The position numbers and the translations under genes are program-made. Shown in pieces: positions 5,579 to 49,974 of a stretch of 60,000 nt of DNA. Source of the stretch: Schmidtea polychroa (Eukaryota). The notes below the pieces were generated by a model, which worked only from the letters and a program-made list of their open reading frames with translations, searched no databases and was not told the origin of the DNA. Within the stretch, counting starts at the first letter, position 1. The number at the start of each line of letters is the position of its first letter. The DNA lies in the NCBI GenBank assembly GCA_044892525.1, contig CM097885.1, forward strand, positions 3,846,001 to 3,906,000. Reading direction: 5' to 3'.

Positions 5579-5581
<3 letters not shown>

Positions 5582-5657: not shown

Positions 5658-5750
5658 TGGTTAATTCGCGCCTGTGTGCGCTGTTTACTTGTTTTTGGAG
5701 TTAATTTGTGTGCGTACACAGACGCGGACAATTGTAGAATTATTAGTTTA

Positions 5751-6727: not shown

Positions 6728-6731
6728 TATT

Positions 6732-19374: not shown

Positions 19375-19376
19375 TA

Positions 19377-21424
19377 TTACATCATAGCAACCTAAGATAT
19401 ATTTAGTCCACACGCACACCGACACGATGATGTCCTGCTATTCTCAAGTAGGGAGAATTTTGTTGCGATTAGCCAACAAAGCAGGAGCATAGTGAATATA
19501 CAACCTTCGTTCAAACAAACAGATGTATGTTTACACGCTGTTACACGTCGTTATGACGACAATTTCGGTGAAAATTTGAAATAGAAAAATTTAGATTTTA
19601 ATAAAAAATAAAAAATTAATAATTTGCTTTGAATTAATAAGTTAATAAAATTAATAACCAAACTAACCTGATTTAGAGCAGCGCCAGGGTACATTAGCCG
19701 CATTGAATTACCCTGCTAACTTAAAACCCACATAATTTCGACAAAGTATAAAACATAATATAAAAATATAATTGGATAAAATAATAAATAAAATTAACGA
19801 TGATGAAAATAATAATGAAATCCAATAGTAATATAGTTGATAGTAATTGTCAAACCCCGAAAATAGACACAAGGTTGTTTTAGGTGAATAGAGTAATCTG
19901 AGAAGTCCCAGTTTCTTTTCATTGAACTACAACTGTTTGAACGAATTAACTTGAATGTTTGAGGCTTGAATGGGTTTAAGTTTTGTCAAAGGTATGCATG
20001 TGTGAGACATTCCTGATTCTATGCATGGGTGGTATGATAAAACTCGTGGTGTTAAAGCATTAATAGTGATAATCTTTTAAAATTATAAATAAAGGACTTC
20101 TTATTCTGCAGATGACTACTCCCACCAATCCTGGAAAAAATCTTCGCCCATGTTTCTCCTGCGCCGATAAAAATGCGGATATCGCGCAGCTCCATCTGTA
20201 CATCGAGGAATTGAAAAAGAGAATTGACCTCTTCGAAGGAACGTGGTTCTCCCCGCCACAAATGAAGGAAGAAAAGAGCAAGATTTTACGTCTGGAGCAC
20301 TGCCGTGACAGTCTCCTAGAAGAGAGTAGGTGTTAGAGGCTAACCATAAAGGCCAAATCCGAGGCACTTCATAAAGTATATTCTGAATCCGAAATAGCGA
20401 AGCGAGTTCGCGAATACCCAATACAAGATGGGACCAACGTGTTCCCAGTGCACCACCAATCTTCAGAGCCATCAACAACTGGTTTTAAGGGGCATGGCCT
20501 GCATTTGCCACCAATTCCCGCCCAGTTCTCTCAGGCTATAGGCCTATGGCAGGAGGCCCATCGGATCCCATCTTGGACCCGATCCTCGTGTCACATATCG
20601 CACAATGTCCAACAGAAGCCACATTGCCATATCGGAAGCGCAAGAGGCCGACGCGCAAGAGGCCGACGCGCTCGGAGAAAAATCAGAAGCGTAGGAACGC
20701 TATGGCCGCGCTCGAAGCTTCATTGTCCGTGGCACAGTCAACTATCAAGGAGATCGCATTCACCCATTCAATCCCCGCTAAAGAAATCTTCCGGGTAGTT
20801 CCAGCCGACAGCATCAAATTCCTCGAAGATCGCCGGATACCCGTCGACATTGACGAAATGATCGCTTAGGGAGAAGTCTTTCGGTGATTCGACTCGCCAT
20901 CAGTCTCGATTCTTTTCAGTTGTGAACAAACATCGCGATGATCTATGATATCTTCTAAGGAACGGTACTGCATGATTAGCTTTCTAAGTGTCTTTTCTGT
21001 GTATTAACCGTTGTACAGTATATTTTACTTACCTTAATATAATTTTCGTTGCGTCAAGTGCGTTCTTGGTATGAGTTGTTATGTGGTTGGCATAAATGAA
21101 TGGTGAATTTGAATGTATGTCAATAGATAAAGGTCGTCCCCTTGGACCAGGGTCGAACCGAGTAATGTGTGAGAGTTTGGGTAAGACCTTCTAGGGCACC
21201 TTAGAACGCGAACCGTGAATGGGTTAATAGTAGTCCTAAGGCAGGGGCTCACCTGTTAACCAACTCAAACCCATGTGTGCACCACCAACGTGTAATATCT
21301 CCACGGGCTCACATGAGGGATATTAGTAAAATCATCACGGATATGCTGGGTGAAGGACCTGAGCGGAATAAAACGATTTTATGCCTTGTAATAAAAATTT
21401 CTTTCCTCCCCACATACGCCAACA
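19377..21424 (+). mobile_element. Large TGTTGG...CCAACA element (family B), 5'-truncated copy
   Basis: Contains the family ORF, the 3' structured module, AATAAA near 21367 and the terminal CCAACA at 21424. Left boundary is set by the adjacent insertion. Confidence 0.7.
20112..20887 (+). pseudogene. Family B ORF: CxxC, coiled coil, Arg-rich motif (disrupted)
   Basis: PCFSCADKN...LKKRIDLFEGTWFSPPQMKEE...RKRKRPTRKRPTRSEKNQKRR...IPVDIDEMIA. TAG at 20334 and a frameshift; acceptor TTCTGCAG sits immediately before the ATG. Homologs at 33515-34301, 42763-43280 (-) and 47940-48645. Confidence 0.75.
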
Positions 21425-27043: not shown

Positions 27044-27684
27044 TTTATCTAAAATTAACAAAATTATCAAAGTATTTCAACATTTTACAACATAACTCAT
27101 AAATCATACTTATTATATTAATTATTTCCTCTGACGTTTACAATTTCAATATTTATAATTTACATTTGATGTAGATAAACAAACATTTTATAAATATTGT
27201 ATTTTAGCTTTGAGCGCAATTCGGAATATTATTAATGTTAATTTTCAGCATTTTTCTCATTTATTTTTAATATTACAAAATTATTATGAAGGAATTCAAA
27301 TAAAAATACCTAAAACTAATTTCAATTTTGTCTCGGATATATCATTTCATTTCCAAGCAACCGAATATAAAAGTGCGTCAGCTATTGATCCAGTAGGCCT
27401 TGGAGAACTCCTTGCTGAATCCAGCTGACCGATGCCTGAAGCATTACCCGATCTATTGGGTAACAGAACATATAGTCTCCTCTGGCCCTGACCGGCGTAT
27501 CCGTCACACCAGCGCAAACATATTCCCATCAAGATCATATAGACTTTTACTTGAAATATACTCAGGTAATCTCGTAAGATAAAAGAAATGAGCTTTCATA
27601 TTTAAAATGATTGTAATGCATTGTAATATTATATTTTTTATTATTTATTATAATTTAATGTGGATTGTATTTTTAATCAACACG

Positions 27685-28299: not shown

Positions 28300-29021
28300 G
28301 TTTATCATAAAACGTAAAATTAAATACACATAAAAATTTACTGTCGGTTTTGTCCCAAGAAGTTCAGTAGATCAATAAAATACGGTTTGAATTAGCTATC
28401 AAATTGGATTTCTAAATGAAATTCGAATTATTCCTCAGGAGGTTCTAATTGGATTTATTGAAAGGTGTTTGAAGTCTAAATGGGTGTTTTGAAAGGTAAA
28501 GTGTCCACTGAGACAGTCCTTTATATAGATTTGTTAATGTAAACCGAACCAACCAGGATCAAGCCAGTGTGTATTTTTGATCAATTTTTTATGAGTTTTT
28601 ACCTTCTAAATTCCAATCATTTTTATTGGATTCTTTTATTTTTTGTTTTAATTTATTAATTTATTTTTAAATTACACTCTTTTTGATTCTGATTGTTTGG
28701 TAAATCGCTTTCTTACACCATCTTTATCGCATGGATTCGGAGCTGTTTTCTGCATCTTAGTCTCTTTTGTCAACGATTATTTCTTTGTTTTTATGTGCGA
28801 CGTTTTGCATTTTACAGTTTTTATTATTTTTGTTATTTTATTACATCTTGTAATGTTTTTATTTCTGTTTACTTGATGTTTTGATTTCTTTTAAATAAAC
28901 TTTATTCTTTTTCTATGTTGTGTTGGTGTCTCAGTTGACTCTTTACCTTCAATATTTTATTAATTAATACAAGAAAAGCTTATTTGGAAAATATTTTATT
29001 TTATTTCTTTTCAGCTCAACA
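28300..29021 (-). mobile_element. Family B 5' end fragment
   Basis: Minus strand starts TGTTGAGCTGA, then an A-rich block and TATATAAA near 28520, as at 30992 and 45197. Confidence 0.6.
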
Positions 29022-29028
29022 AATCTAT

Positions 29029-29280
29029 TGTTGGGCGTTCATGCGAAAACAAACCGGCAATTACTCACAACTTATCATTGCGTAGGTCTATGGCTGAAGG
29101 TTGACTAAAGTGAAAACGATGGAAGATTTATGCGGAGAACATGAGGCAGGTGAGCCCCTACGTTAGGACAACTCCACCATGCTCTTCCTAGCGGGTGCTC
29201 GTTAGAAGGTGTCGAAGTTTACGAGAGTATATGCGCATAACTAATAGTTGAAAGCGGGTATTGAATGCGAGTACCTAATT
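29029..29280 (-). mobile_element. Family B 3' end fragment
   Basis: Minus strand has ACCTTCTA...GTCCTAACGTAGGGGCTCACCTG and ends CCCAACA. Confidence 0.65.
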
Positions 29281-29460: not shown

Positions 29461-31315
29461 CTTATATATGAGAATGTGATTAAGATCTCCAATCCAGCAT
29501 ATTTGCGATGAACGATTAGAACGTCACCTTCAGAATGATTGATAAGGAAACATCATTTTATGCCATATCATACTCGGATTCCAAAGGGCATGGTCGCTAG
29601 GTAAATTAATTTATTCGATATATATTGCTAGAAGTAACACGATTTGTAATATTTTATGTTTCATAACATTTTTACAATTATCATTTATGAAAGAACTCTG
29701 GTGGATCTGTCTATCATGACTGTCTAGAGACGGTCGGTAGTAATTTAGTGGTGTCGAGGTGAGTCATGGTAAGTAGAGAAGCTTCTATTAGGAAATTTAT
29801 TTGAGTGAATTGAGTTAAAGGCAGTTGGGAGTTCCCTTCGAGTGGCAAGAGAATATAGTTTCGTGAAACGTAAACATCCAAGAAACATCTTTAAATCTCG
29901 TAGTAGTTCCAAATCTTTTCGATAATCAAATCCTATAAGAAAATGTAGGAAATTTCCATCTGAGAAAATAACGTCGAAACGACCATTTAGATTAGTTCCC
30001 TCACACGTTCATTGAGAATTCTTCTTACAGAGTTTCTTTAACTCAAAGATCGGCTGTAATTTAGAAATCGAGACGAGTCCATGATCATAATTGTCCATCT
30101 GAATTTGCAGAAATCAGCTATAGGATATTCCGTGTAGAAATACATATTTCAATTAGCATCATTGGCGTATCTCGATTTTCGATGAAGTTTTATCATCACG
30201 ACCAACATGCGGCATTTGTTGGCCATTGATTAAGGCCATTGATGGGCATATAATAAGCATACGCTTAATGTTAGGAGATTTAACGTAAATGCAATAATAG
30301 ACGGCATAAAGAATTGTAGAGGCCCGAGGAATGGATTTAATCAAATAGACAAAGCTGTTTATCAGATCTACTTGACTCGATATGGGTGTTGATAATAAAT
30401 TGAATTAATGTAAATTCACCCCGGAAACCGAGGAAAGCTTTAGGTCAATAAACAGCGAATATACAGAGATAGTTTATCCCCATAGCCGATCTACAGCTAG
30501 GACCGAACACCCGATATGACAAGAATATGATAAACAAAATAAAATTTTCTCGAATAACTAATATCCAATTAAGCCCTTTTAATAAATTATCTGTCGGAAA
30601 AGTATTATTCTTAATCATTCTCATCTGAAGTCTCATAGTTCCTAAAGTTAAGCAATAAAAATCTTTCATCGACTCTAACCAAATCATATTTTCCCAAACT
30701 TATAGTACTTAATCATTAATAAATGATGATTTAAATTCAATACAAAGGCAAAATTGATCAAATCTTGCCCTGACAAAGACACTATTCTAAGGATGAAATT
30801 ATTGAATGTTGAGTGTAATATTATGACCGTGGGTAAGAAAAGTAATGAGGATAAAAAATACTCGAATTTTTACGGCATGTTTTTCACGATGCCAGGATAA
30901 ATTATCTTGATAAGCTTCCTTTTTCTAGAATGTGCGAGTCAAGTTTACTGCCAAAAGGCCCTTAACCGTGCTTCTTCTGCGCGGATTAAAATGTTGGGCT
31001 GAGTCGAAAACATAAATTTGGAAATTAAGACAAGCAGGACATTAAATAAAATAAAAATAAGACGAACAAAGTTAAAAAATAAATCGAAATACAAAAGAAA
31101 CAAATAAATTTGGATATAAGAATTAAAACAAAAAATAAAAATAAGAAAATTAAAATAGGAAAATAAAATGACGAATAAAATAACGTAAAATTCAATAAAT
31201 AATGAGGAAATTAAAGAAACAAATAAAAAATATAATAGAAATAAGAAAAATTAAGAAAAATAACCAAAAACAGAAAAAGTAATTTAAATTAGAACAAATA
31301 AGCGGTACTCAATTC

Positions 31316-31351
31316 TGATTGGTCCGCATAAATGAAAAATCTGTATATAAG
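31316..31351 (+). promoter_or_regulatory. Inverted CCAAT box plus TATA box of family B; conserved at 45529-45566
   Basis: GATTGGTCCGCA followed ~15 nt later by TATATAAG in both copies. Confidence 0.65.
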
Positions 31352-31748
31352 CAAACATTAAAATCAGTACACTTACCGTTAAATTTAAAACTTCTTAGGT
31401 AAAACGACCATCAGTGACATTCAGAAACTATACTACGAAAGAATCATCAGCGACAAATACAGATATCATTCAACAGCGAGATCCATTAAATTTTCGACTC
31501 AGCCTTTCAATATCTACAGAATAATTCGGTAAGAATGTTGTTTAATAAAACTAGTATATATGCCGTAATGATTGAATGTTTAGTATATTAAATTAAATTC
31601 TAAGTATCTTTATCTTTTCTTTTCATTTGATCCGTTTTTAGTAATTGTAACGAAGTCAGTAATGCAATTGATAACAATAAATGTATTATTCAGAAATTTT
31701 TGAGCTATTTTATGATCGAATATTTATAAATTTTTATGTTATGAGAAA

Positions 31749-31870
31749 CGTGGAGTTGAGACGTTTCATACCATAGTGTGAGGGGCCTTCGGGTGCTCAA
31801 CCGGTGGGTATGAAACGCTTCAATCACGCAGCTGATTCGGGCCGAAATGTGGGGGCTTCCTCACGGGTCC
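31749..31870 (+). ncRNA. Conserved structured RNA motif 1 of family B; second copy 46031-46152
   Basis: Long stem with compensatory changes between copies, a cUUCGg hairpin, and GTGAGG/CCTCAC loop complementarity. Confidence 0.65.
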
Positions 31871-33514
31871 GTCACTGAAGATGCGACTAAAATTTACGAG
31901 CGGTATTCTGGAAAATAATGTCTATTTAGAGTTTAAAAAGAGTCACGCTAATAGTATGAAATGAAGAAAAATCTTTGGAGAGTTCGCGCAGTGATTGGGG
32001 ATGTCACACAAATCGACACGTAGTATCACCTTTACTAAACTTAGATCATCTCTAGCATCGGGGAAATCCATACAAAATTCTATTAATTCGTTCTGATCAT
32101 TATTATCATCATATTGAACATATTAATCGAGTTCGTAATCCAACTCAAAGTTGTTCTTATAACCTTCAGTCCACTTAACTTCGTAAATTCTATTTCACCT
32201 CCTATGCCCCTCGTGTATACTCAACTTAGATCCATTTGTCACGAAGTCTTACATTATGGCTAAATCCGAAAAAGAATTATTTACCTTGTAGATAGTTTTT
32301 AAAAAAAAAAATTAACTATAAAGTACTATGGAATCAAACCGAATTCACAAGACAATGTAACACAGTGAAATTTATTTTTTTTTTAAAACGATCCAGCACG
32401 ATATCTACTTAGAACACCGAACACATAATGTCTGAGGTAAATTGTGAGAGACCAAGATGAGATTTCATCAATACGATATTCCATCCAAGTTCGAAAAATC
32501 CGATTTTTGATGCAGTTTAGAGAACAGTAAAATGTCAGCAGTTGTCGAATTGTTTTCCACGATCGTTGAGGCACTAGCGCAAATTTCCAATAGATAGTGA
32601 TAATTTCCATGAACTAACAGCAGAAGATTTCCACGATGAGAGCTTACAGCAGCATAGACGATAATATATTTTAAATAAGCATCCAGTGAGAACTACGAGA
32701 CATGTGGTATGACCAAATATCTGTGAAACTAGCATATACTAATTCAATTAGATGAAATAACAACATCCAGATCCGATAATGGGACGACAGCATGAGAATT
32801 CACATCTAAGTAGGACAAATGAAAACACCCACAGCACTAGAGTATAAACTCATACACTAGATAAGTTTCTCCGCAACCGCCACACGCACACACACCGAAT
32901 GGTAGAGAGATAACCAGCATGCGAGTATACCAGTGGCCGTGACAAGGCATCCATGAGTTGTTTAACAGATGAATTTATACACGTCGTGGGTATAGCGACC
33001 GTTATCAGTGTAATCAAGTCACTGAATTTTCTTCATCCTCAATTTACGTCACATTAAGTAGGTCAACCCAAGCGTGAGTGAGAATGACTTTAACAGATTT
33101 AGGTGGTGAAACTCTGATCTCACTCGCTAATCGAATAATTTTAGTTAATCAAATGTTTATGCCTCTAACCGATTGAATCATTTTATGTACCACATCTGGT
33201 TAATTTAATAATGATAGTAAGATTTCTCCCCCCGACATTCAGGCACATCGATAATCCGTTTTGGTAGCTTATTTCAATGACAATGGATGTAATACCACGG
33301 GGTTTTACCATCCACTTTTCTTTTATGAACTCCGATAAGGTAGAGAAGGTTAGCCGTCTGAAGGGGTTTCTCTTGTCAGCATGATGTCACCTTTCTTTAT
33401 TGTCGCGAGGTGTGCAGGCGGATTGTAAAAACTATAAAACCACAAATGACTGTCTGTCCTGTAATAACGATTTGGGAATCGTAGTGAATTGCGATAATTA
33501 TCTTCATTTTAAAG

Positions 33515-34301
33515 GTTAAATTCGTTGGAGTCAACCGAGTAGTGCCCCAGCAAAAATACGGATATCCGAAAATTAAACAAATATGTTGGGCAATTGAAAA
33601 AGCGAATAGAAAATAACGAGTGCACGTGGTTCTCCACACCACAAATGAAGGAGGAGAAGACCAAGGTATTACGGCTGAAGCACTGTAGGGATAGTCTCCT
33701 AAAAGAAAGCCGGTACCAACGTTTAACAATCAAGGCCTAGTCGGAAGCCTTGTATAAAGTATATTCAAAGGCCGAAATCCAACGAAGTATTCGGGAATAC
33801 CCTATAAAAGACGGAACAAACGTGTTTCCGTTGCACTATCAAGAGAATTAACCACAGTTGCCAAGAACCAGTTGTGTTGAGCAAGGATGCCATTTCCTAC
33901 CTCTGACGGATCCCGTTCTCTCCGGATCATCTAAACCCAATCGTGTATCTACGGAAACCACAGAAATTTTTTTTTTTTTTACTGCGTCGATACCTCTTTC
34001 TGATAATAAGGATCTCGCCTCATCCGCTAAGAAACGGAAAAGCCCGTGTTGGGCCGAGAAAAATCAAAAGCCACGAGATACTATTGCTACTCTAGAAGCA
34101 TCCCTGTTCGCTGTTCAATCTTCTAAAGAGCAATTTCCCAAGATTGATAGGTCCATTTTGAGAGAAGATTTCCGGATAGTTTCCACCGAGATATTCCACC
34201 TACGAGAAGACGCAAGGCTACAGGTGGGCATAGACGCCCTGTTAGCTGAGGGCGAAATGTTTTCACCTGCTCAAATGACCCGTATCCCGAATGAAGTGTG
34301 A
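33515..34301 (+). pseudogene. Family B ORF (disrupted)
   Basis: KNTDI...LKKRIENNECTWFSTPQMKEEKTKVLRLKHCRDSLL...DGTNVFPLH...KKRKSPCWAEKNQKPR...VGIDALLAEGE with two internal stops. Confidence 0.75.
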
Positions 34302-34474
34302 AATTGTATCATGTCCTTTAACCTTCGTTGTAGAACTCATTTGTAATTACCATGTGTTTTCACGTTGTGCATTAAAATTTGTTAGTGTTGAATTTGATAT
34401 GGTCAACTTCGTTGTTTTAATTTTGTGTTTGGAATTCATGGACAGTTATGTAATAGAGAGGTTTAATCATAGAA

Positions 34475-34660
34475 AGACGTCCCTTGGACCAGGATGTCGG
34501 TTTGTGTAAATGAGACGAGCTAAGACCTTCTACGGCACTTTAGAATCCAAACTGTGAACTTTACCAGGAATAGTTCTACCATGGGAGGTCACCTACCGGT
34601 AGATTCCAACCTATGTGCGCAGTAGCAACGTGTTACATCACCACGGGCACACATAAGGGA
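34475..34660 (+). ncRNA. Conserved structured module 2 of family B; copies at 21130-21320, 29130-29215 (-), 42408-42592 (-), 48925-49066
   Basis: TAAGACCTTCTA, then a CAC-bulged hairpin, then a CCAA-bulged hairpin; stem sequences differ between copies but still pair. Confidence 0.65.
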
Positions 34661-36310
34661 GATGATTCACAAACCATGAAGGTTACTTGGGTGATTCCAT
34701 CTGAGTATATAAATAGTTTCTTTTCCCCCTAAGTAACCAACAATTTTATTTATTTTTCATTGCGATAATTTACTTTTGTAAATTATCGCTATATTGTTTG
34801 GTTACACTTTTTATTGATTCAACCACACTTGATACAACCCTTTTTGCTCTGCACTTTTCAATACCAGTGTAAATCTTATATAGGGATAAATCTTCTAACG
34901 GGAGATGCTGCTTTCTGGTGAGCTCGATTTTATAATCTGCAGTTTACACTAAGTTCAAAGTTTTCTTTATTACTCTCACTAAATCTTTAGTTTAATTTTC
35001 TTCCATCAACTAGCAATTCTGTTTTCTAGCCGGTCACTTTTATACCTCTCTCGTAATTTGAATCGCTGTGTAAAATTAGTTCGAATCCAATTTCGCCCCG
35101 GGTTTCCTCTTGTCGCTTTAAAGAATTTCTCCTTTGACGACTTACCTTAATTTGATTTTGAGGTTCTCTCACATCGCTCGGGTTTTCCATTTGTCGGGTT
35201 TTCCAGTGTCTCTGATTCTCCATTAGTTAATTAATTTTTAATAAATTTTAGTTTTTTATAATTAATGACCCCCACTGATTTTATTTTATTATATTTGAAC
35301 TCGTCTCATTACTCGGCTGATTCATAGCGGCATTTAAAAGTAAAGTTTTCATGAATGCCTTTAAGTAAATCTATCAGCGACACTAGGACATTTAAACAAC
35401 ACAACGAACGAATTTCAGGTTCCAAAATATTTTCTTATAGCTTTTATAGATATGATCCAGCTGGTTGTCTAATTTCTAATTTTTTTTAAATCTTAAGGAT
35501 TTCAAGATAAATTTTGTAAGTAAAATTCTTTTATCAAATTTATGAAATTTGTGAATTTAAATATTAATTAAATATTAATTATTAATTTACATGAAATCAT
35601 TTTTGTTTTAATAATATTATATTTGAACACTTATCGAATGAAAAAGTGAATAAATTTATGAAATGTTACATTGTTTAATATTAAATCATTTCATTAGCTG
35701 TTAAGAAGATCTCATTAAAAGAATGCGTAACAGAATTTGATAGAGTTTAGAAAGCACCGATTGTCCTCATCGCATCGACAGCTCTCATCTTGGTAAACTT
35801 ACCCAAACTGATGTGAAAGCAATTTGGAACATTTTATCAGTATTGTTGTTGCGGATTGCGCTGAAATGCCTCACAAATAGCTGGCGGAGGTGAAATGTTA
35901 AGGCATTAATCAATTTGATATAAGGCAATTTTAGTATTGCATTTAGGTGCATTTTACTGCCATTCAATACAGCAATAATTTCTCCACAACTCATATAACA
36001 TCAGCAGCAGTAGCGATGGCGGTTTTCTCGTCGGTTCCATTCGTCATAGGAGCGCTTGATTTGTTGAGGCGATTTGTCAGCGCTTATATTCGGGTGGATT
36101 TTGATTGGATTATTTCTTTCACATTAATTATTAATTTAATTATAATAAATATAATGATAATATCGGATGGAAGGCGCGGGGGGGGAGAATGACAATGATT
36201 ATCTTAATAATTATCTCATATAATAAATCAATAATAATAATAAGGCAAATAATAAATCAGATCAAAAGCCAAAATAAATCAATTTTTTGTTGAAATGTTT
36301 TTCTAATTTT

Positions 36311-37735
36311 TCATAATTTTTCAATTCTGCACCTGAGCAGCAATTTATCACTTTTGGCTGCTAATTTATAGGCTGAGCGATCATAATAAATGCAAACTGG
36401 ATAATTTCTGTCATCTGACGGTTTCCCCCATCCGGCATCATCAGGGCGATCTGAATATATCAGTGACTCGCTCATATAAATGTTGCCATTTGCTGGATCG
36501 ATCACATCGATTGTCACCGATTGATTGAACGGCCAGTCCAATTGCTCATCATTTGCCCCACGCATCACACAGAAACCAACATCAACCCAATCATAATCAT
36601 CCCCAATCTCCACCGTCAAGCACATTTTGTAACCGATTGGCCCGGAATAAAATGCCTTGCTGTAAATCAATTCATTTCTCTTTTGTTGTGAAAATTTATC
36701 GATTTGCCATTCAAAAAATCCATAATTTATATATTTTTCACTTCCTAATTTTGTTTCAATCTGCCGAATTTCATTGGCGCATTTTGCCATTTCAAATTGC
36801 AACTGAATCTCAAATTCAAACATTTCAATAAATCAATAAATCACCTTTTCATTCTCCCGTTGCAGTCGCTGCTCGCATTTCTCTTTCATCTCATCAATTT
36901 GCTGTTGACAGTTTGCTTCAATCACCTCAATTTGCTCTTTGACCTGCTTTGCATCAATAACAAATTAATAACAAATCAAATCAATAATCAAACTTGATTG
37001 ATTGATCCAATATTTGTTTCCATCTCCATTCTCAATGAGCGATTCTCATTCTTCAATGCCACCATTTCCTCATTCAATTCTTCTATTTCTGCTCTGTTCT
37101 CCGCCTCTTTCCTTTCAACATTGCACAATTTCACCTAAAATCACAAATATCAATTAAATTAATTACAAATAAAATTTTACATTGATATTAATAATTTCCT
37201 CACGCAATTTGACATTCTCCTCTCTCATTGCCTGCATCTCATTGCACAAATTGCTGGTCTGATCAATCAGTAATTTGCTATGGTCTTCATTGTTCTCATT
37301 GAGATGTATTTTCATTTCGTCCTTCTCTACTCCAATCATTTCGCATCCAATTCTATTGAACGGGCATCTAATTGGTTGCTTGTTACATGTTCTCATGTGA
37401 CTCTCCATCATGCACAACTCGGTTTTGAATACACAATTTTGCATTGGGCATTTTACAGTGACTTCAGATATCCTTAAATTGACTGGGTGATCCACAGAAA
37501 CATCCTTATTGAAAAGAATAGTTTGAACTTCACAATATTTTGCTGCTCCTGGACAGAATTTATCTTTTCCATCCAAATAATGCTCAATGCAATCAGAACA
37601 AAAGCGACAACCGCAAGGAGCATTGCAAGCATTTATCATTAAACATTTGCAAATTCTGCATATCAATTCACTGCTGATTTCATTATCAAATTCAAATTTA
37701 TTTCTCTTCATCATTTCCCATACGCTTGCAAACAT
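36311..37735 (-). CDS. TRAF-like protein (RING, Zn finger, coiled coil, single MATH), apparently intact
   Basis: Predicted exons 37735-37181, 37134-36994, 36943-36845, 36802-36311; internal exon lengths (141, 99) equal those of the 9480 gene; no stops. Confidence 0.9.
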
Positions 37736-38195
37736 TTTATCTAAAATTAATAAAATTATCAAAATATTTCAACATTTTACAACATAAATCATAAATCATA
37801 CTTATTATATTGATTATTTCCTCTGACGTTTACAATTTCAATATTTATAATTTGTATTTTGATGTAGATAAACAAACATTTTATAAATATTGTATTTTAG
37901 CTTTGAGCGCAATTCGAAATATTATTAATGTTAATTTTCAGCGTTTTTCTCATTTATTTTAAATCTTACAAAATTATTTAAATTATAATTTGATAATAAA
38001 AAGTAAAATTTTAATGGAAAGTTAAATAAATCCAAATTAAAAATAGATCAAAATATAAAAATAAATATTGTTCATAAAATATTAAAATAAAAAAAGTAAT
38101 TATTTAAAGAAATTTATCTGAAATTAGAATTTATTTGAACAGATTAAAAAGAAATTCAAAATCATCATAGCAAAAATAGAAATATAAATAAAATC

Positions 38196-41286: not shown

Positions 41287-44093
41287 CGAGTTCAAATATA
41301 ATAAAATAAATTCATTGGGGGTCATTAATTATAAAAAACTAAAATTTATTAAAATTTAATTAACTAATGGAGAATCAGAGACACTGGTGTAGTAGAATTT
41401 TACATTTTTTAATTATAATTACGAACCAAAACAGAACCTCAATTAGGTTTTATTTTTACTTCTGTTTTGGCGTTCTCGACTTCCTGGAACTAAAATTATT
41501 AAAAAAACTATATAGCGATAATTTGCTATAGTAAAAATTGACAAAATAAAAAAATCGAATTAGAAATTTAGATAACTAAGAAAACAGAAAGTTATATAGA
41601 AGATTAATCTTAAGATACTCAAGAATAAAGTTCCGAAAAAGATAAAAAAGAAAATTATAAAACCTAAACAATTCGAGATTAAAGTTCTGAAAAATATTAA
41701 AAGGAATATTATCAAACATTAACAATTCAAGAATAAAATCCCGAAAAAGATAAAAAAAGAAAATTATAAAGACTTGTCCAATTTCTATGAGCCGAGGTTT
41801 CAGGTCGATTATTTTATATATATTATTTCTTTAATAAAAATTGTTATCGTTTACAACTGTTATTGTTAATTTTTTTATACATTTTATTTGGGGTGTCATA
41901 AGCACGCAGATACACACGCACCCCGATTGTCCCGCCACAAGTTTTAACGGAGACTCTTTCGAGCTCATCAAATTTCTTAAATAATCTATACAAATTAGAT
42001 ACAAGCTAAGAGTAAACTTTTAACATAACAACTGGAAAACCCGGGACAATGGAAAACCCGAGCTATGTGAGAGAACCTCAAAATCAAATTAAGGTAAGTC
42101 GTCAAAGGAGAAATTCTTCAAAGCGACAAGAGGATGCCCGGGGTAAAATTGGATCCGAACTAATTTTACACAGCGAAATCAAATTACGAGAGAGGTATAA
42201 AAGTGACCGGCGAGAAAACAGAATTGCCAATTGATGGAAGAAAATTAAACGAAAGATTTAGTGAGAGTAATAAAGAAAACTTTGAACTTAGTGTAAATTA
42301 TCGCTATGTAAAAATAAATAAATTTGTTGGTTACTTAGCCGGAAAAAGAAACTATTTATATGTTCAGATGGAATAACCCAAGTAATCTTCATGGTTTGTG
42401 AATCATCTCCCTTATGTGCGCCCGTAGTGATGTAACACGTTGGTACTGCGTACATAGGTCGGAATCTACAGGCAGGTGAGCTCCCATGGGAGAACTATTC
42501 CTGGTAAATTTCACAGTTCGGGTTCTAGAGTGCCGTTGAAGGTCTTACCTCGTCTGATTTACACAAACCGACATCCTGGTCCCAGGGACGTCTTTCTATG
42601 ATTAAACCTCTAGATTACATAACTCTCCATGAATTCCAAACACAAAATTAAAACAACGAAGTTGACCATATCAAATTCAACACTAATAAATTTTATTGCA
42701 CAACGTGAAAACACAAATGAATTCTACACCGAATGTCAAAGGACATGATACAATTTCACACTTCATTCGGGATACGGGTCATTTGAGCAGGTTAAAACAT
42801 TTCGCCCTCAGCTAACAGGGCGTCTATGTCAACCTGTAGCCTTGCTTCTTCTCGTAGATGCGATATCTCGGTGGAAACTATCCGGAAATATCGATCTTGG
42901 GAACTTTCTCTTTAGAAGATTGAGCAGTGAACAGGGTCACTTCTAGAGCAGCAATAGTATGTCGTCGCTTTTGATTCTTCTCGGCCCGACATGGCCGTTT
43001 CCGTTTCTTCGCAGATGAGGCGAGATACTTATTATCAGGAAGAGGTATCGACGCTGTAGTGATTTCTGTGGTTTCCGTAGATACACGATTGGGTTTAGAT
43101 GATCCGGAGAGAACGTGATCCATCAGAGGTAGGAAATGGCATCCTTGCTCAACACAACTGGTCCTTGGCAACTGTAGTTGATTCTCTTGTTGGTGCAACG
43201 GAAACATGTTTTTCCCGTCTTTTATCGGGTATTTCCGAACTATCCCTACAGTGCACCAGCCGTAATACCTTGGCCTTCTGCTCTTATTGATGAATTTTAC
43301 CTTTGTATTGAATTTAAATCATCAGTTTATTAATGATTAAGTACTATAAGTTTGGGAAAATATGATTTGGTTAGAGTCGATGAAAGATTTTTATTGCTTA
43401 ACTTTAGGAACTATGAGACTTCAGATGAGAATGATTAAGAATAATACTTTTCCGACAGATGATTTATTAAAAGGACTTAATTGGATATTAGTTATTCGAG
43501 AAAATTTTATTTTGTTTATCATATTCTTGTCATATCGGGTGTTCGGTCCTAGCTGTAGATCGGCTATGGGGATAAACAATCTCTTTATATTCGTTATTTA
43601 TTGACCTAAAGCTTTCCTCGGTTTCCGGGGTGAATTTACATTAATTCAATTTATTATCAACACCCATATCGAGTCAAGTAGATCTGATAAACAACTTTGT
43701 CTATTTGATTAAATCCATTTCTCGGGCCTTTGCAATTCTTTATGCCGTCTATTATTGCATTTACGTTAAATCTCCTAACATTAAGCGGATGCTTATTATA
43801 TGCCCATCAATGGCCTTAATCAATGGCCAACAAATGCCGCATGTTGGTCGTGATGATAAAAATTCATCGAAAATCGAGATACGCCCATGGATGTTGATGC
43901 TAATTGAAATATGTATTTCTATACGGAATATCCTATAGCTGATTTCTGCAAATTCAGATGGACAATTATGATCATGGACTCGTCTCGACTTCTAAATTAT
44001 AGCCGATCTTTGAGTTAAAGAAACTCTGTAAGAAGAATTCTCAATGAACGTGTGAGGGAACTAATCTAAATTGTCGTTTTGACGATATTTTCT
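41287..44093 (-). repeat. Inverted segmental duplicate of about 29960-35303 with internal deletions; includes a family B 3' part at 42325-43280
   Basis: Matching ORF-track pairs on opposite strands (35026/42049, 33858/42878, 30445/43362, 30159/43705); junction near 43285 joins about 33652 to 30760. Confidence 0.85.
41388..42030 (+). mobile_element. Solo LTR (family C), 643 bp, 5-bp TSD ACTGG
   Basis: ACTGG|TGTAGT...CATAACA|ACTGG; the empty site is present in the paralogous segment near 35205. Confidence 0.9.
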
Positions 44094-45196: not shown

Positions 45197-48100
45197 TGTT
45201 GGGCTGAATTGAAATAAAAAATAAGAAAATAGCATTAAGACAAACATGATAAACAAATGAGTAAAAATAAACAAAAAATTAAAAATAAAATAAGACACAT
45301 AATAAAGAAGAAATAATAAATTAGGCAATGAAAACTAAAACAAAAAATTAAAATTAAAAATTAAGATAAGAAAACAGCAATAATAAGGAAAATAACACAA
45401 AAATCAAGTAGTTAATAAGAAAATTAAGAAAATAAATAAAAAATATAATAAAAATAAAGAAAAAATAAGAAAATTAGCAAAGAAACATAAAAATTAAATT
45501 AAAATAAATAATTAAGCGGCACTCAATTTTGATTGGTCCGCACATACGCAAAAATTAGTATATAAGGTAAGCACTGAAACAAAAATTTCATTGTTAACAA
45601 ATTAACCATTTAGGTAAGAAGACTTTTAATTACATGCAGTGTTAACAAATTAACCATTTAGCGTTCAACAGTTATATAGATCAATCATCAGGACAACCTA
45701 GGAGAAATTGAAAACAAAACCATCGATTCAGCCCACAAATCAGTCGAGTTATTACTTCAACAAAACTTTAGAATTAAATCTTACCTATTTCGAACGGATA
45801 CTTTGGAAAATTTTAGTTTTGCATTAATATGTAATCTGATTAAGTAATTTATTATTTGTAATATCTGAATGTAAAATTAAAGGACTTTTAAAGAACACTT
45901 CTCTTTTCACTCGATATCATTAAATAATTAATTTTATGGTATAATTAGTAGCAACTATTATTTTTTTTTTGCGAGTTTTATATGTTTTATGTTTTATTTT
46001 TTTATGATTTATTAAAAATTCAATGAGTAACGTGGAGCTGAAATGTTTCTTACCATGGTGTGAGGGGCCTTCGGGTGCTCAGCAGGTGGGTACGGAGCAT
46101 TTCAGTCACGCAGCTGACTCAGGCCGAAATGTGGGGGCTTCCTCACAGGTCCATCGCTGAAGATGTGCCTAATCTAGTGGGAAATGCTAGGGTGAAGATA
46201 AAATTTATGCAGAGTATTGGAAGAGAATTCGTATTATAAAAATTTAGATGGCAGGGAGTGTCAGGAGCAGGTCTACACAGTGATTGAGGGTGTCGCACAT
46301 TTGGCATAGTTAGCAATTTCTTTACATTCGGAAAATTCGCACAAAATTCGTCACTTCACCTTAATCATCCCATCACACAAGTAAAAGTATAAGAGCTCAG
46401 CTATGATAAATCCTATTTTAGACCCACTCATTACTCCGAAAAATAAATCTCGTCGAGACGATATTTGAATTAAGATATTCTCAGAAGCGAAAACACCTTG
46501 TGAATCTCATCAATTTTTCTATCACTCACACTAGTATCACCTCTCGAACACCAAATCTATTTCCAATTTTTTCCCTTTTAATTATCTGTTCCTCAAAACG
46601 CCATAAAATCTGTCTCACCATCTCCATTCGTCTCGTATAATCTAAATCAGTATAGGTCCATTTGTCATCATCTCCTTACCCTATAGGTATTTGAAAAATA
46701 AACGCGAAAAACAATTAAATACATTTTATTTTGCACAACAAAACGAAAAATTGAGGTTTACTTTCGAAAATGATCCATCGCCGTGCCTGTTTGCAATGCT
46801 GAGCATATCGTAAGCCCGATCTGATCTGCGAATAGCCAGCATGAGACTCCACGAGGAATGAATTTCCTTCTAAATAATTCCAATCAAACTCGACGCACGC
46901 ACGGAGAACAGTAGGCTGCTAAAATTCATCGAACCATCTTCTAATAACCCTAGAACAGTTGCAAACTCACGATAGACACCGTTAATTTCCACGATTTGAT
47001 GATAATTAAGCATTCCGCTACGAAAATTGCAAAATTAGCCGATGAGAAAATACTCCATAAGCAACGCATGTAGAATGAGTAAAAGTACATGTGGCATGAC
47101 AAAAGTTTGATAAAAATACACCACTTAGTCTACCGGATGAGATAATACCACTTATGCCGTCTGAGGAATTTTGAATAACATAAGAGATCCGTGAGAGTTC
47201 ACACACGGAAATGACGAGATAAGTGCATTCACAGATTTTCCGCGTATACATAAATCCAAACATCGAGATAATATCATCCAGCAGTATTCTGAAAAAAACT
47301 ACATCGTTATCAACTGACTAGCCAAATGTTAGTTTTCCATCCAATGTGAATTTTTCTTGAATACCACCTGCACGTCACCAAATGACATAATCTACATTAA
47401 GAGCATGTATAACCAACAGCTGTACGTCATTGCGGGTACACGAATTGTTATCTGAATTAACGTATCGACTAAAATCCGTCCGAGACATAAATAATTTAAG
47501 TACCTCGATAAGAATAACCAATTTAACATTTTTTTTGGATTAAAATTGAGGTTTCTGTTATCTAATGACCCGAAGTGAAAATAAATAAGGATTAATTTGA
47601 TTTTTATTCTACGCATCTTATTCTGTTATTTAATCAATTTTAATATGTATCCATTCCCACTCGGATGGCCATGAGAATATTTCCCACAAACATTCGGGCG
47701 TATTTATCAATTTTCTCGTAAAGAATTTCGACGACTATGGGGGTGATGCCATGGGGTTTTGCCTTTTAAATTTCTTTTATAGAACTATGCTAGTGCAGTA
47801 ATGATCGATCGTATTGGAGGTGAGTTTTCTCTTGTCGGTATAAGACCGCAAATGTTTATTTTTATGTACCATTGGTCTACGGATGAAGTGAATTATTGAT
47901 AATTACTCTAAATTTTCTTTCCTTTTATAGCCTACGATTATGAATCCAGTCGCCAAAAATGTTCTCAAACCTTGTTACTCGTGCGCAGATAAGAACGTAA
48001 CCATCAAGGAACTGCAGGCACAAATCGGCTACTCAAACGCAAGATTGATGAATTGGAAGGCACATGGTTTAGCCCAGTGCAAATGAAGGAAGTGAGAAAG

Positions 48101-49332
48101 AAATTGTATAGAAGCGAACACTGCCAAGATAGCCTGATCGCAGAAAATAGATCTCAGTGTATGCTCATTAAGGAACAATCTAAAGCCCTTCATAAGGTTT
48201 ACTTACAAGCTGCAACAACGCGAAAGATCGTAAGCATTCCGATCAACGAAGAGGACAATGTGTTCCCCACGCATCACGATCAGCCTCTCGACAGGTCGGC
48301 ACATCGAAGAAATCATGCCAAGGGTGTGTGGAGACGGAGCTCTCGTCCAAATCTAATGACGTAATCATCACAGCACCCCCTACTGTCAGTCCTTCTTCCA
48401 AGCCCAAACGGCGGCAACTATCTCGGGCCGAACGAAAGCGAAACCAGAGGGAGAGAGGTGCAGAAAGAGAAAAGAAGCAAGTATCAGCTAATGCATCAAC
48501 AGAAGGTAGTGTTGCTCCTATAACTAGTATAAACACTGGAATCCCAGGGCGCATTATCTCCGCAGCTGGCGTCACATGGAAGGAGAATGCATCCGAATTT
48601 TTCAACCTAGAAGAGCTATTAGCAGAAACTGAATGGGAGAAGTGACCCAGTTTTGCGAGCAAACCGAAGTTCCAGTCGTAACTCTTGTGATTTTCAATGT
48701 GATGCTCTGTGTCTTCTTGTATTGTCTGTGTTTTTCTCTTGTACATCGATAATTTAATAAATCAGTTTTGTTTAAGTCATTGCGTTTTGCTTTATGTATC
48801 GGTAAACTTTACTTTTCCTTTTCTCTACGAGATAATTTGGTTGGCTGACACCTTTGAATAGTGTATGATTTGCAACAAACTCAGAAAACGATGGAATGTC
48901 GAGTGCAGAGGTAGAGTAGGAAGACGTAAGACCTTCTATCGGCAGTCAGGAAAAGGGAAGTCGAGGCCTCGGAAAAGAGTAGTCCTAAGGCAGGGGCTCA
49001 ACTGTTTTCTGGTGTCTCGCCGGCATAATACAGGACCAACATGAAGCAATTCATGGGTATTATGTTGGAATGCAGATCGTGTGGAGTTCTACTCAAGGTT
49101 GACAGAAATATGAACTATGTTAATGTAATGGGCTATCATCCTCTAGACGGGACTTAAAAGGCGTATGAGTCAACCGAGTAGCACCTCAGCACTACCTATT
49201 ATAAACGACTCGAATATTTATATATATTTAGGAGTCGATTTATCTTATAAACATAGACATAATATAGACGGAAGCCTAGAACAAGCACTCATAGACAATA
49301 TAAACGCCTTCTAATTACACCTACACCCAGCA
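45197..49332 (+). mobile_element. Family B element, divergent, near full length (right end tentative at CCCAGCA)
   Basis: TGTTGGGCTGA start, promoter, RNA motif 1, ORF 47940-48645 and module 2. LINE-like sequence seems to resume after 49332. Confidence 0.7.
47940..48645 (+). pseudogene. Family B ORF (two frameshifts)
   Basis: MNPVAKNVLKPCYSCADKN / LKRKIDELEGTWFSPVQMKE...DNVFPTHH / KPKRRQLSRAERKRNQRER...FFNLEELLAETEW; acceptor CCTTTTATAG at 47930. Confidence 0.75.
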
Positions 49333-49915: not shown

Positions 49916-49974
49916 AATAATAATTTTTTATGTAATTATGTAATGTAACGATTGCCACTATTTCTGTGCGATAA

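What the first reader, a model, noticed from the sequence alone, without database searches (positions are those of the whole stretch)
30992..34742. Giant LTR-like element with its own spliced gene and two covarying RNA modules: a possible Rev/response-element-like system
Seen: elements bounded by TGTTGG...CCAACA (30992-34742, 45197-~49332; partial at 19377-21424, 28300-29021, 29029-29280, 42325-43280). They share one order: A-rich block, CCAAT+TATA, GTAAG donor (31529; 45614), structured motif 1, AG acceptor just before a ~230-260 codon ORF (20111, 33514, 47930), structured module 2, end. I see no RT, integrase or transposase inside. Known: TG...CA ends typify LTRs; very large gypsy elements (Burro) are described in planarians; complex retroviruses pair a spliced Arg-rich export protein (Rev, Rex, Rec) with a structured RNA element. 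Inference: a self-contained protein plus cognate-RNA regulatory unit inside an invertebrate LTR or non-autonomous element.
Basis: partly seen in the sequence, partly recalled or inferred. Interest (0 to 1): 0.88.

Follow-up and report, generated by a model that had tools for sequence, protein, structure and literature searches.

The report
Gene-carrying LTR of giant planarian retroelement
The 3.75-kb element is a dead solo long terminal repeat of a giant Burro-type retrovirus-like element, and in younger relatives the same repeat carries a well-conserved small protein gene and two folded RNA signals whose jobs are still unproven.

Summary
The described features are mostly real. Window 30992-34742 has sharp TGTTGG...CCAACA ends that recur genome-wide. 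It is not self-contained. Relatives occur as same-strand pairs. One fetched pair (4198-bp LTRs, 99.93% identical, 26.3 kb apart) has a 4-bp target duplication, a tRNA primer site, gag, and RT-RNaseH-integrase-ankyrin. That makes a 30.5-kb Burro-type Ty3/gypsy element.

The window copies are old solo or truncated LTRs, and all three ORFs are broken. In younger LTRs the ORF is intact (about 254 aa). It is under strong purifying selection (dN/dS 0.05-0.27). It starts directly after a pyrimidine tract plus AG. It has no Pfam or PDB match. A profile search finds 12 distant relatives that share a helical domain and an arginine-rich run.

Both RNA modules covary strongly (13 of 47 and 17 of 35 pairs compensatory). 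Motif 1 and module 2 also occur in an ORF-less, pol-less relative. Motif 1 is absent from the young ORF-bearing LTR. So a strict protein/RNA cognate pair is not shown.

Splicing is inferred from conserved signals only, because no usable RNA data were available. The Rev/response-element reading remains an untested possibility (about 15%).

The parts
30992..34742 (+). Solo LTR (3751 bp) of an old Burro-like Ty3/gypsy family. It has TGTTGG...CCAACA termini, no target-site duplication (AAAA vs ATTT), no PBS after it and no PPT-flank before it.
30997..31010 (+). U3-start box GGCTGAGTCGAAAA, reverse-complementary to the leader box at 31491-31504
31020..31300 (+). A-rich block of U3 (approximate limits)
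   Evidence: the same block is seen in L063 and L061
31315..31350 (+). Promoter-like pair: inverted CCAAT box CTGATTGG (31315-31322) and TATATAA (31344-31350)
   Evidence: (18 of 18 copies)
31491..31504 (+). Leader box TTTTCGACTCAGCC, complementary to the LTR's own first bases
31529..31533 (+). GTAAG, a conserved 5' splice-site-like signal (use not shown)
   Evidence: GTAA at the aligned place in 16 of 18 copies; GTAAG in 14
31747..31879 (+). Motif 1: two-domain structured RNA of 133 nt
33512..34301 (+). Remnant of the LTR ORF: AG at 33513-33514, no ATG, in-frame stops at 33738-33740 and 33849-33851, natural stop at 34299-34301
34488..34664 (+). Module 2: structured RNA near the 3' end of the LTR
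45197..49325 (+). Second, diverged LTR. It holds the promoter pair at 45529-45565, motif 1 at 46029-46161, an ORF remnant at about 47939-48645 with at least 2 frameshifts, and a module-2 remnant at 48951-49074. A gag fragment follows at 49949-50226.
19377..21424 (+). 5'-truncated LTR of a Burro subfamily close to the young one. It holds CAG|ATG at 20109-20114, an ORF remnant at 20112-20881 (1 stop, 1 frameshift), module 2 at 21146-21324, and the end ...CGCCAACA at 21424.
42325..43283 (-). Inverted segmental duplicate of the 3' 950 bp of the 30992 copy (88% identical). It shares both flanks with that copy.

Best explanation
The element is a solitary long terminal repeat left by an old member of the Burro-type giant Ty3/gypsy, retrovirus-like elements of a planarian-like genome.

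Shown. LTRs of this superfamily share one plan. It begins with TGTTGG and a short U3-start box, then an A-rich block, then a CTGATTGG-plus-TATA promoter. A leader follows, with a box complementary to the U3 start, then a GTAAG. After that comes a variable middle, then a covarying structured RNA (module 2) in the last 300 nt, then CCAACA. In full elements a tRNA primer-binding site lies 7 nt further on.

Shown. Long LTRs (3.7-4.2 kb) carry, between leader and module 2, a gene of about 254 codons. It is intact in many young copies and evolves under strong purifying selection.

Inferred. Transcription starts about 30 nt after the TATA. The gene is read from an mRNA in which a leader donor is joined to the acceptor that abuts its ATG. 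This could happen from either LTR, because the gene is present in both.

Inferred. The product is a nuclear, self-associating, nucleic-acid-binding accessory regulator of the element. It has a helical hairpin, a disordered proline-rich linker, a basic helix and an acidic tail.

Inferred. Module 2 and motif 1 are cis-acting signals of the genomic RNA leader (primer placement, packaging/dimerisation or export). They are used by autonomous and parasitic relatives alike and are not private partners of the protein.

The window copies themselves are inert. My odds: LTR of a Burro-type element 0.95; ORF is a real gene of the family 0.9; spliced expression 0.6; regulatory nucleic-acid-binding role 0.5.
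For: LTR identity. The ORF's N-terminal peptide has 5476 first-look candidates (150 scored). Among those places are at least 20 same-strand pairs about 26.3 kb apart. One pair was fetched. It has 4198-bp repeats with 2 mismatches and 1 gap, a TSD of AATA, and the PBS TGGGGGCTCAGCCGGGAT 7 nt after the 5' LTR. Downstream lie a RING ORF and gag (Retrotrans_gag 1.5e-11, zf-CCHC 2.8e-10). In the middle is an open frame of at least 1993 aa with RVT_1 1.7e-36, RNase H 2.1e-39, integrase 1e-20 and 1.1e-12, and ankyrin repeats. These features match the published Burro description (PMC6431247, section 7).

Gene. 10 of 13 copies examined give 246-255 aa from the conserved Met. 31 of 45 pairs gave dN/dS of 0.05-0.27. 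The other 14 pairs had saturated dS, with dN of 0.14-0.20. By my hand count, about 76 of 150 scored genomic matches lie in stop-free frames of at least 240 aa.

Splice signals. A pyrimidine tract plus YAG stands directly before the ATG in 8 of 8 copies whose upstream bases I printed, although the sequence further upstream differs. The same is seen in the window copy at 20109. GTAA is at the aligned leader position in 16 of 18 copies.

RNA modules. For motif 1, 97.4% of cells are paired and 13 of 47 pairs are compensatory, against 1-4 in the slid controls. For module 2, 95.1% are paired and 17 of 35 pairs are compensatory, against 1-7. Several pairs that are mostly G-U mark the sense strand as the folded one.

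Protein. The AlphaFold model has helices 17-42, 49-89 and 183-214 at pLDDT 75-93, and the rest is disordered. A profile search found 12 distant relatives (E 5.5e-10 to 5.6e-4). hhalign against one of them gives 97.7% probability and 34% identity over 98 columns. In the ten I inspected, most of those long enough show an arginine-rich run downstream of the shared domain.
Against: No RNA evidence exists for the start site, any splice or the poly(A) site. The only possible RNA run consists of contigs and showed no GT..AG joint.

The U3/R/U5 borders are therefore unknown, and the ORF could lie in R, U5 or U3.

A second possible acceptor region lies about 110 nt after the donor, marked by a conserved pyrimidine block. 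It would keep motif 1 exonic, but its AG is not conserved.

The protein has no match in Pfam, in PDB sequences, in the fold libraries (no hit at E <= 0.001) or in the ESM Atlas (best score 0.84). Its role therefore rests on composition and a model of mean pLDDT 58.8.

Identity with the published Burro consensus could not be tested, because no reference sequence was available.

The window copies lack target duplications, so 'solo LTR' for them rests on the missing PBS and PPT flanks.
Confidence: 0.7

Rival explanations
1. First reader's reading. The LTR protein is a Rev/Rex/Rec-like export factor made from a spliced mRNA. It binds one of the LTR's structured RNAs (module 2 being the better candidate) to carry unspliced 30-kb genomic RNA out of the nucleus.
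For: A conserved Arg/Lys-rich run is followed by a confident helix, and the N-terminal part is a helical hairpin. A conserved acidic-hydrophobic C-terminal motif (LPVDIDEM) is nearly invariant in the 10-sequence alignment. Splice-like signals are conserved. Both RNA modules covary. The pol-less relative keeps both modules, as expected if it borrows trans-acting factors. In one distant relative (P0004) the Arg run touches Pfam REV, though below threshold (19.1 bits against a cut-off of 22). In a known virus the response element lies partly in the LTR: the MMTV RmRE spans the env-3' LTR junction (PMC2661877, Results passage).
Against: The protein itself has no match to any Rev/Rex family at E <= 0.1. 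The REV touch is compositional and sub-threshold. Motif 1 is absent from the young ORF-bearing LTR even with filters off. Module 2 sits next to the primer-binding site, where reverse-transcription and packaging structures are expected. No binding, localisation or RNA data are available.
Confidence: 0.15
2. The protein is a transcriptional transactivator of the LTR promoter, in the manner of foamy-virus Tas or HTLV Tax (comparison recalled from memory). In this reading the basic helix binds DNA and the acidic tail activates.
For: The layout of a basic helix followed by an acidic C-terminus fits. The promoter pair is strictly conserved (18 of 18).
Against: There is no bZIP or other DNA-binding family match. 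No conserved candidate binding site was sought or found. The layout fits an RNA binder equally well.
Confidence: 0.2
3. The protein is an RNA chaperone or coat factor that multimerises on the element's RNA, like LINE ORF1p or hepatitis delta antigen (comparison recalled from memory).
For: It combines a coiled-coil-like hairpin with basic runs. The ESM Atlas lists a delta-antigen cluster, but at chance level (0.79).
Against: The element already has a Gag with zinc knuckles. The Atlas score is below any useful threshold.
Confidence: 0.1
4. The element is a self-contained non-autonomous transposon, not an LTR, or the ORF is a chance frame.
For: The window copies stand alone, lack target duplications and contain no enzyme genes.
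Against: Paired copies flank gag-pol with a PBS and TSD. dN/dS is 0.05-0.27 with saturated dS.
Confidence: 0.03

Closest known systems
Burro (also called GYPSM1), giant Ty3/gypsy LTR retroelements of Schmidtea mediterranea. Source: PMC6431247, section 7 read. The primary paper of Grohme et al. 2018 is not held.
   Same: Total length is over 30 kb (30.5 kb here). Gag carries Retrotrans_gag and CCHC knuckles. RT, RNase H and integrase are followed by ankyrin repeats. RING-type accessory parts are present. Copies number in the thousands. The genome is AT-rich with four large contigs (781 Mb) and holds a mir-753 hairpin.
   Different: The texts I could read do not mention a gene inside the LTR or conserved LTR RNA structures. 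I could not see the figures, the Repbase entry or the primary paper, so these may be drawn there. Sequence identity to the published consensus was not tested.
Accessory genes and response elements in retroviral LTRs. MMTV sag in U3 is seen only in search-listing abstracts. The MMTV Rem-responsive element spanning the env-3' LTR junction is from a passage in PMC2661877. HTLV RxRE and HERV-K RcRE in the LTR are recalled from memory.
   Same: A protein-coding frame and structured RNA elements lie within the terminal repeat of a reverse-transcribing element. Expression is expected from a spliced mRNA.
   Different: There is no sequence or fold relationship. Here the host element is a Ty3/gypsy-type element of an invertebrate. 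The whole gene lies inside the LTR, so it is present twice per element. Function is unknown.
HIV-1 Rev (Pfam PF00424)
   Same: Arg-rich run, helical hairpin and small size.
   Different: The LTR protein gives no hit at E <= 0.1. Only one distant relative's Arg run touches the model, and below its cut-off. The domain order also differs, because here the basic helix follows a long disordered linker.
LTRs that carry structured RNAs: plant retrozymes with hammerhead ribozymes in their LTRs (PMC4918200 and PMC9695139, abstracts seen in the listing)
   Same: A conserved, folded RNA module sits inside an LTR and is kept by non-autonomous relatives.
   Different: No hammerhead or any other Rfam family matches. 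Nothing suggests self-cleavage.
Ty1 CYC5/CYC3 5'-3' RNA pairing (recalled from memory, not checked in a paper)
   Same: A short box in the 5' leader is complementary to the first bases of U3. In genomic RNA those U3 bases lie near the 3' end.
   Different: This was seen here only as sequence complementarity. It is significant in 4 of 6 subfamilies tested. No functional data exist.

Membership tests
LTR of a Ty3/gypsy LTR retrotransposon | TG...CA termini with a short inverted repeat | tested here: met
   TGTTGG...CCAACA appears in the window copy. 18 of 21 5' ends and 12 of 12 3' ends agree.
LTR of a Ty3/gypsy LTR retrotransposon | Two near-identical direct copies flanking an internal region | tested here: met
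   This is met for relatives: a 4198-bp pair at 99.93% identity and a 1645-bp pair at 99.94%. The window copies are solitary.
LTR of a Ty3/gypsy LTR retrotransposon | Target-site duplication of 4-5 bp | tested here: met
   The two full-length relatives have AATA and TTTA. Neither window copy has one.
LTR of a Ty3/gypsy LTR retrotransposon | tRNA primer-binding site just after the 5' LTR | tested here: met
   TGGGGGCTCAGCCGGGAT lies 7 nt after the LTR in both full-length relatives. It is absent from the window. The tRNA species was not identified.
LTR of a Ty3/gypsy LTR retrotransposon | Polypurine tract before the 3' LTR | tested here: inconclusive
   A conserved flank ...CGGGCCCCGGAGTGATT lies before both 3' LTRs, but it is not a clean purine run.
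LTR of a Ty3/gypsy LTR retrotransposon | gag, then pol in the order RT - RNase H - integrase | tested here: met
Burro | Over 30 kb in total, a giant polyprotein starting with Gag plus CCHC knuckles, and ankyrin and RING parts | tested here: met
   The total is 26318 + 4198 = 30.5 kb. About 23 of the 30.5 kb were read.
Burro | Sequence identity to the published Burro/GYPSM1 consensus | not testable with these tools
   No reference sequence was available, and the primary paper is not held.
Rev/Rex/Rec-type export factor with response element | Membership of a known Rev-type protein family | tested here: not met
   The LTR protein has no Pfam family at E <= 0.1. A distant relative scores 19.1 bits on PF00424, below the cut-off of 22.
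Rev/Rex/Rec-type export factor with response element | Arg-rich RNA-binding motif and a leucine-type export signal | tested here: inconclusive
   The basic run RKRKR..KNQKRRN is conserved. The C-terminal LPVDIDEM motif is conserved, but no NES predictor or assay was available.
Rev/Rex/Rec-type export factor with response element | Made from a spliced mRNA | not testable with these tools
   Splice-like signals are conserved. No RNA run was usable.
Rev/Rex/Rec-type export factor with response element | Protein binds a cognate structured RNA of the same element | not testable with these tools
   Only co-occurrence could be examined. Module 2 is always present with the ORF. Motif 1 is not. Both are also present without the ORF.
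Any described RNA family (Rfam 15), including hammerhead, twister and HDV-like ribozymes | Covariance-model match to motif 1 or module 2 | tested here: not met
   The only gathering-level hit in the window is mir-753 at 5039-5100. In 30900-34850 at E <= 5 there were two chance-level hits elsewhere.

The most novel reading that the evidence does not exclude
Giant Burro-type Ty3/gypsy elements are 'complex' retroelements in the retroviral sense. Their LTR encodes, twice per element, a spliced, arginine-rich regulator. This regulator recognises an LTR-borne structured RNA (module 2, or motif 1 in older lineages) to control export or use of the unspliced 30-kb RNA. Gag-only parasitic relatives keep the RNA signals so that they can borrow the factor. 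This would be a Rev/response-element-type circuit that arose independently outside the vertebrate retroviruses.
Probability: 0.15. Interest if true: 0.85.

Novelty: new variant of a known kind. Interest (0 to 1): 0.6.

Why it matters
Burro elements fill a large share of planarian genomes, and the papers I read report that they are transcribed and held in check by PIWI. How a 30-kb RNA that holds splice-like signals is expressed is not addressed in the texts I read.

Three things give concrete handles on that question. The first is a strongly conserved gene inside the LTR, present in thousands of copies and twice per element. The second is the pair of RNA structures with clear compensatory changes. 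The third is a conserved promoter with a leader box complementary to the start of U3. Together they could serve as an RNAi target, a set of reporter elements and a set of mutable base pairs.

If the protein proves to be a post-transcriptional regulator, it would show that retrovirus-like complexity evolved in an invertebrate Ty3/gypsy lineage. If it does not, it is still an unannotated family-specific accessory gene, with distant relatives in other unnamed animal gene sets.

For the window itself the result is ordinary: dead LTR remnants in a repeat-rich, segmentally duplicated region.

Tried and rejected
RNA evidence. No RNA holder was listed for the young LTR. I laid one run guessed to be RNA (X1, contigs) and three runs that behave like DNA, since they cover the unique flank and stop at the LTR edge. 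No GT..AG joint appeared between the leader and the ORF. The joints seen (for example 4937-6277, which also occurs in two of the three DNA-like runs) are deletion variants. In X1, summed contig depth relative to the DNA-like runs dips over L063 2100-3600. The tool warns that such depth and such holes prove nothing, so I do not use this.

Protein searches that found nothing useful. Pfam on the ORF gave nothing. PDB sequences gave nothing. The word-indexed search of 5.8 billion proteins gave nothing. The ESM Atlas gave a best score of 0.84, below the useful level. Foldseek against PDB and BFVD gave no hit at E <= 0.001, only generic helical hairpins.

Ribozyme idea for motif 1. I had spotted CUGAAGA and GAAA strings by eye. 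Rfam gave no hit, and the covarying fold places these strings in a hairpin stem and an internal loop. I rejected the idea.

Motif 1 in the young Burro LTR. The covariance model found nothing, even with filters off (best 8.3 bits).

Short intron upstream of motif 1. A conserved pyrimidine block follows the donor by about 110 nt, but the AG after it is not conserved. This is left open.

Genome access. 

Literature. Searches were. I read passages or sections of PMC6431247, PMC8532177 and PMC11410931. None mentions a gene or RNA structures in the Burro LTR. The primary Burro paper and Repbase were not available, so I cannot say these features are not in print.

Earlier notes of this scan. Nothing was found near this place or for motif 1.

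Full report
WHAT IS IN THE WINDOW.

The window is AT-rich (25-42% G+C in 2-kb bins) and is made largely of repeats. It lies in a 781-Mb assembly with four very large contigs and holds a mir-753 hairpin at 5039-5100(-). Both features fit a planarian of the Schmidtea type. I did not try to name the record.

The stretch 30992-34742 starts TGTTGGGCTGAGTCGAAAA and ends ...TAAGTAACCAACA. A genome search with it gave 3074 first-look candidates, of which 40 were scored, giving 64 matches. Among the aligned copies, 18 of 21 5' ends start TGTTGGGCT and all 12 3' ends finish ACCAACA, each with unrelated flanks. The last 16 bases occur 1769 times in the genome, against 9 for the reversed control. The boundaries are therefore real and reproducible.

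Inside the window the relatives are as follows.
- 45197-49325 is 75% identical over the first 370 bases and 86% over motif 1, and also matches at the protein level over the ORF.
- 19377-21424 carries the ORF, module 2 and the LTR end.
- 42325-43283(-) is 88% identical. It shares both flanks with the 30992 copy (96% and 94% identity). It is therefore an inverted segmental duplicate with an internal deletion, not a separate insertion.
- A copy 99.84% identical lies 94 kb away.

IT IS AN LTR, AND THE FAMILY IS BURRO-TYPE.

A search with the ORF's N-terminal peptide gave 5476 first-look candidates. The 150 scored places include at least 20 same-strand pairs about 26.3 kb apart. I fetched one such pair in separate pieces and found the following.
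- The repeats are 4198 bp long and differ by 2 mismatches and 1 gap.
- They start TGTTGGGCT and end CGCCAACA.
- The whole element is flanked by the 4-bp duplication AATA.
- Seven bases after the 5' repeat comes TGGGGGCTCAGCCGGGAT, the complement of a tRNA 3' end.
- Downstream lie a RING-finger ORF and a Gag with Retrotrans_gag (1.5e-11) and CCHC knuckles.
- A 7-kb piece from the middle is one open frame of at least 1993 aa. It holds reverse transcriptase (1.7e-36), RNase H (2.1e-39), integrase (1e-20 and 1.1e-12) and ankyrin repeats, followed by another RING frame.

The total length is 26318 + 4198 = 30.5 kb. This is the published picture of Burro/GYPSM1: internal part up to 25 kb, over 30 kb in all, Gag with CCHC knuckles at the head of a giant polyprotein, and ankyrin and RING motifs (PMC6431247, section 7 read). 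I could not compare with the published consensus.

A second, related family turned up through the 16-mer search. It has 1645-bp LTRs 13.9 kb apart (99.94% identical) and a TSD of TTTA. Its termini, PBS and pre-LTR flank are the same as in the Burro-type element. It has a Gag-like frame (37% identical to the Burro Gag), no match to the Burro pol, and no LTR ORF.

The window copies have no target duplication (AAAA vs ATTT for the first), no PBS and no matching internal flank. They are therefore old solo or truncated LTRs. Their closest independent relatives are at most 91% identical. A Gag fragment lies 600 bases after the second copy (49949-50226).

THE ORF IS A REAL GENE, BUT NOT IN THE WINDOW.

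All three window frames are broken.

In the young LTR the frame runs 254 codons from an ATG at L063:3613. I fetched twelve further copies chosen from different subfamilies. Together with L063, 10 of 13 gave 246-255 residues from the conserved Met. One was cut at 196 residues, one had lost its front, and one showed no frame with the motif.

The ten intact proteins are 73-87% identical to the first. The region of residues 11-115 is nearly invariant, as is the basic stretch with the helix after it.

I used Nei-Gojobori estimates on natural copies only. 31 of 45 pairs gave dN/dS of 0.05-0.27, with dS between 0.09 and about 3. In the other 14 pairs dS was saturated while dN stayed at 0.14-0.20. The N-terminal half is the most constrained, at 0.02-0.26.

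A search with an outside relative scored 150 of 3896 candidates. By my hand count, about 76 of the 150 lie in stop-free frames of 240 aa or more.

WHAT THE PROTEIN LOOKS LIKE.

The sequence and fold searches gave no useful match.
- Pfam found nothing at E <= 0.1.
- PDB sequences gave no match.
- The word-indexed search gave no hit.
- The ESM Atlas gave nothing useful (best 0.84).

With the 10-sequence alignment, the AlphaFold model has mean pLDDT 58.8. It shows a confident helical hairpin (17-42 and 49-89), a short helix, a disordered proline-rich linker (107-176), a confident basic helix (183-214) and a disordered acidic tail. Fold searches found only generic hairpins.

A profile search of 1.84 billion representatives found 12 proteins (E 5.5e-10 to 5.6e-4), matching profile positions of about 33-132. 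hhalign against one of them gives 97.7% probability and 34% identity over 98 columns. I inspected ten of them. Eight are fused to unrelated domains such as a transporter, actin, a phosphatase or a hAT transposase, as expected when a mobile-element frame is swallowed by gene models. Most of those long enough show, after the shared domain, a proline-rich stretch and an arginine-rich run. In one (P0004) that run touches Pfam REV at 19.1 bits, below the cut-off of 22. I read this as compositional.

SPLICE-LIKE SIGNALS.

In 8 of 8 copies whose upstream bases I printed, the ATG follows directly on a pyrimidine tract plus CAG or TAG, although the sequence further upstream differs between subfamilies. 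The window copy at 20109-20114 shows the same.

In the leader, 18 of 18 LTR 5' parts have CTGATTGG and a TATA box 29-39 bases later. A GTAA stands at the same aligned place in 16 of 18 copies, and it reads GTAAG in 14. One of these is 31529.

These are good signs of a donor and an acceptor, but only signs. The run search listed no RNA holder, and the contigs I laid show no GT..AG joint. A conserved pyrimidine block 110 bases after the donor could mark a nearer acceptor, but its AG is not conserved. The 2-kb splice therefore remains an inference, and the U3/R/U5 borders are unknown.

THE TWO RNA MODULES.

Motif 1 (31747-31879 and 46029-46161) was aligned from 24 distinct copies of several subfamilies. 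RNAalifold gives two adjoining hairpin domains with 47 pairs. 97.4% of cells are paired. 13 pairs have compensatory changes, against 1-4 when the partners are slid and a mean of 7.0 in shuffles, with 0 of 500 shuffles reaching the observed value. Five pairs are mostly G-U, so the sense strand is the one that folds. The motif is 92-95% identical in the 38 best-scoring matches outside the window's own copy and its 94-kb duplicate (1769 first-look candidates, 40 scored), which is more conserved than the LTR around it.

Module 2 (34488-34664) was aligned from 17 copies spanning the young Burro type, the window types and others. It has 35 pairs, and 95.1% of cells are paired. 17 pairs are compensatory, against 1-7 when slid, and 0 of 500 shuffles reach the observed score.

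Neither module matches an Rfam family.

WHO HAS WHAT.

- The old long LTRs (window types) have the ORF, motif 1 and module 2.
- The young 4.2-kb Burro LTR has the ORF and module 2 but no motif 1, even with the model's filters off.
- The 1.6-kb LTR of the pol-less family has motif 1 and module 2 but no ORF.

Motif 1 and the ORF are therefore independent of each other, and module 2 is universal and sits next to the primer-binding site. The simplest reading is that both modules are cis-acting signals of the genomic RNA leader, serving reverse-transcription start, packaging or dimerisation, or possibly export. If there is a response element, it points to module 2 rather than motif 1.

MECHANISM I COMMIT TO.

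An LTR promoter drives the genomic RNA. It also drives a short spliced mRNA for a small nuclear nucleic-acid-binding regulator encoded in the LTR itself. The two RNA structures are replication or expression signals of the leader. The odds are given in the explanation sections. The Rev-like version gets about 15%, a transcriptional activator about 20% and an RNA coat or chaperone about 10%.

COMPARISON WITH WHAT IS KNOWN, AND NOVELTY.

The element as such is known (Burro). A conserved gene lying wholly within the LTR of a Ty3/gypsy element, conserved LTR RNA structures with compensatory changes, and the leader/U3-start complementarity are not mentioned in the texts I could search and read. The texts were passages or sections of PMC6431247, PMC8532177 and PMC11410931. 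The primary paper, its figures and Repbase were out of reach.

I therefore rate the finding as a new variant of a known kind, of moderate to good interest for people who work on retroelements and planarian genomes. The window copies themselves are ordinary.

Noticed in passing
window 30997-31010 with 31491-31504; 45201-45212 with 45723-45734; L061 and other loci: The first 15-30 bases of each LTR are reverse-complementary to a leader box just before the GTAAG. The letters differ between subfamilies but the pairing is kept. RNAduplex beats 300 of 300 shuffles in 4 of 6 subfamilies tested, but not in L021 or the young L063. This may be a 5'-3' cyclisation signal of the genomic RNA.
   Followed up: partly
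about +57 to +135 from the CCAAT box in LTR copies (e.g. L063:1260-1340; window 45585-45660): An X-Y-X arrangement sits right where transcription should start. X ends in TTAG or ACAG and is followed by GTAAG/GTAAA. Then, after about 25 bases, X comes again. It looks like a mini-intron of about 50 nt whose end repeats the exon end. By eye, roughly 11 of 19 copies have it, and the rest have a single X, as if the piece had been precisely removed.
   Followed up: partly
L061/L062 (G000:C1:5726001-5745000): A 15.6-kb relative has 1645-bp LTRs (99.94% identical) and a TSD of TTTA. Its PBS and termini are the same as in the Burro type. It has a Gag-like 877-aa frame, internal tandem repeats and no pol match, so it is a likely non-autonomous parasite of the Burro machinery. 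Same-strand pairs of its LTR end about 13.7 kb apart are common in the listing.
   Followed up: partly
window 9447-11399(+), 25676-27285(-), 36314-38267(-), 50223-51555(-): Four copies (82-93% identical) of a RING + TRAF zinc finger + MATH frame sit in a segmentally duplicated block. Burro elements are described as carrying MATH/TRAF and RING motifs, so these may be element-derived rather than host TRAF genes.
   Followed up: no
window 22890-24761(-): A 624-aa open frame has reverse transcriptase (3.7e-13) and a weak GIY-YIG match, which is the signature of a Penelope-like element. A second RT fragment lies at 44423-44977(+).
   Followed up: no
window 5039-5100(-): A full-length mir-753 precursor (74.3 bits, above the gathering score) lies inside a locally repeated unit (4299-5235 resembles 5776-6730 and 18426-19377).
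   Followed up: no
window 169-708(-), 11974-12372(-), 57843-58262(-): These are a bromodomain exon, a proteasome-subunit exon and a DDE_3 transposase fragment.
   Followed up: no
window 49949-50226(+): A Gag fragment (77% identical over 56 aa to the young Burro Gag) lies 600 bases after the second LTR copy ends. That copy may be the 5' LTR of a truncated element.
   Followed up: partly
P0003, P0005, P0012 (outside relatives of the LTR protein): After the arginine-rich run these proteins carry PPPY followed by EFEFP..D.DIIYAP. The second part lines up loosely with the LPVDIDEM motif of the LTR protein. PPxY is a WW-domain / late-domain type motif (recalled from memory).
   Followed up: no
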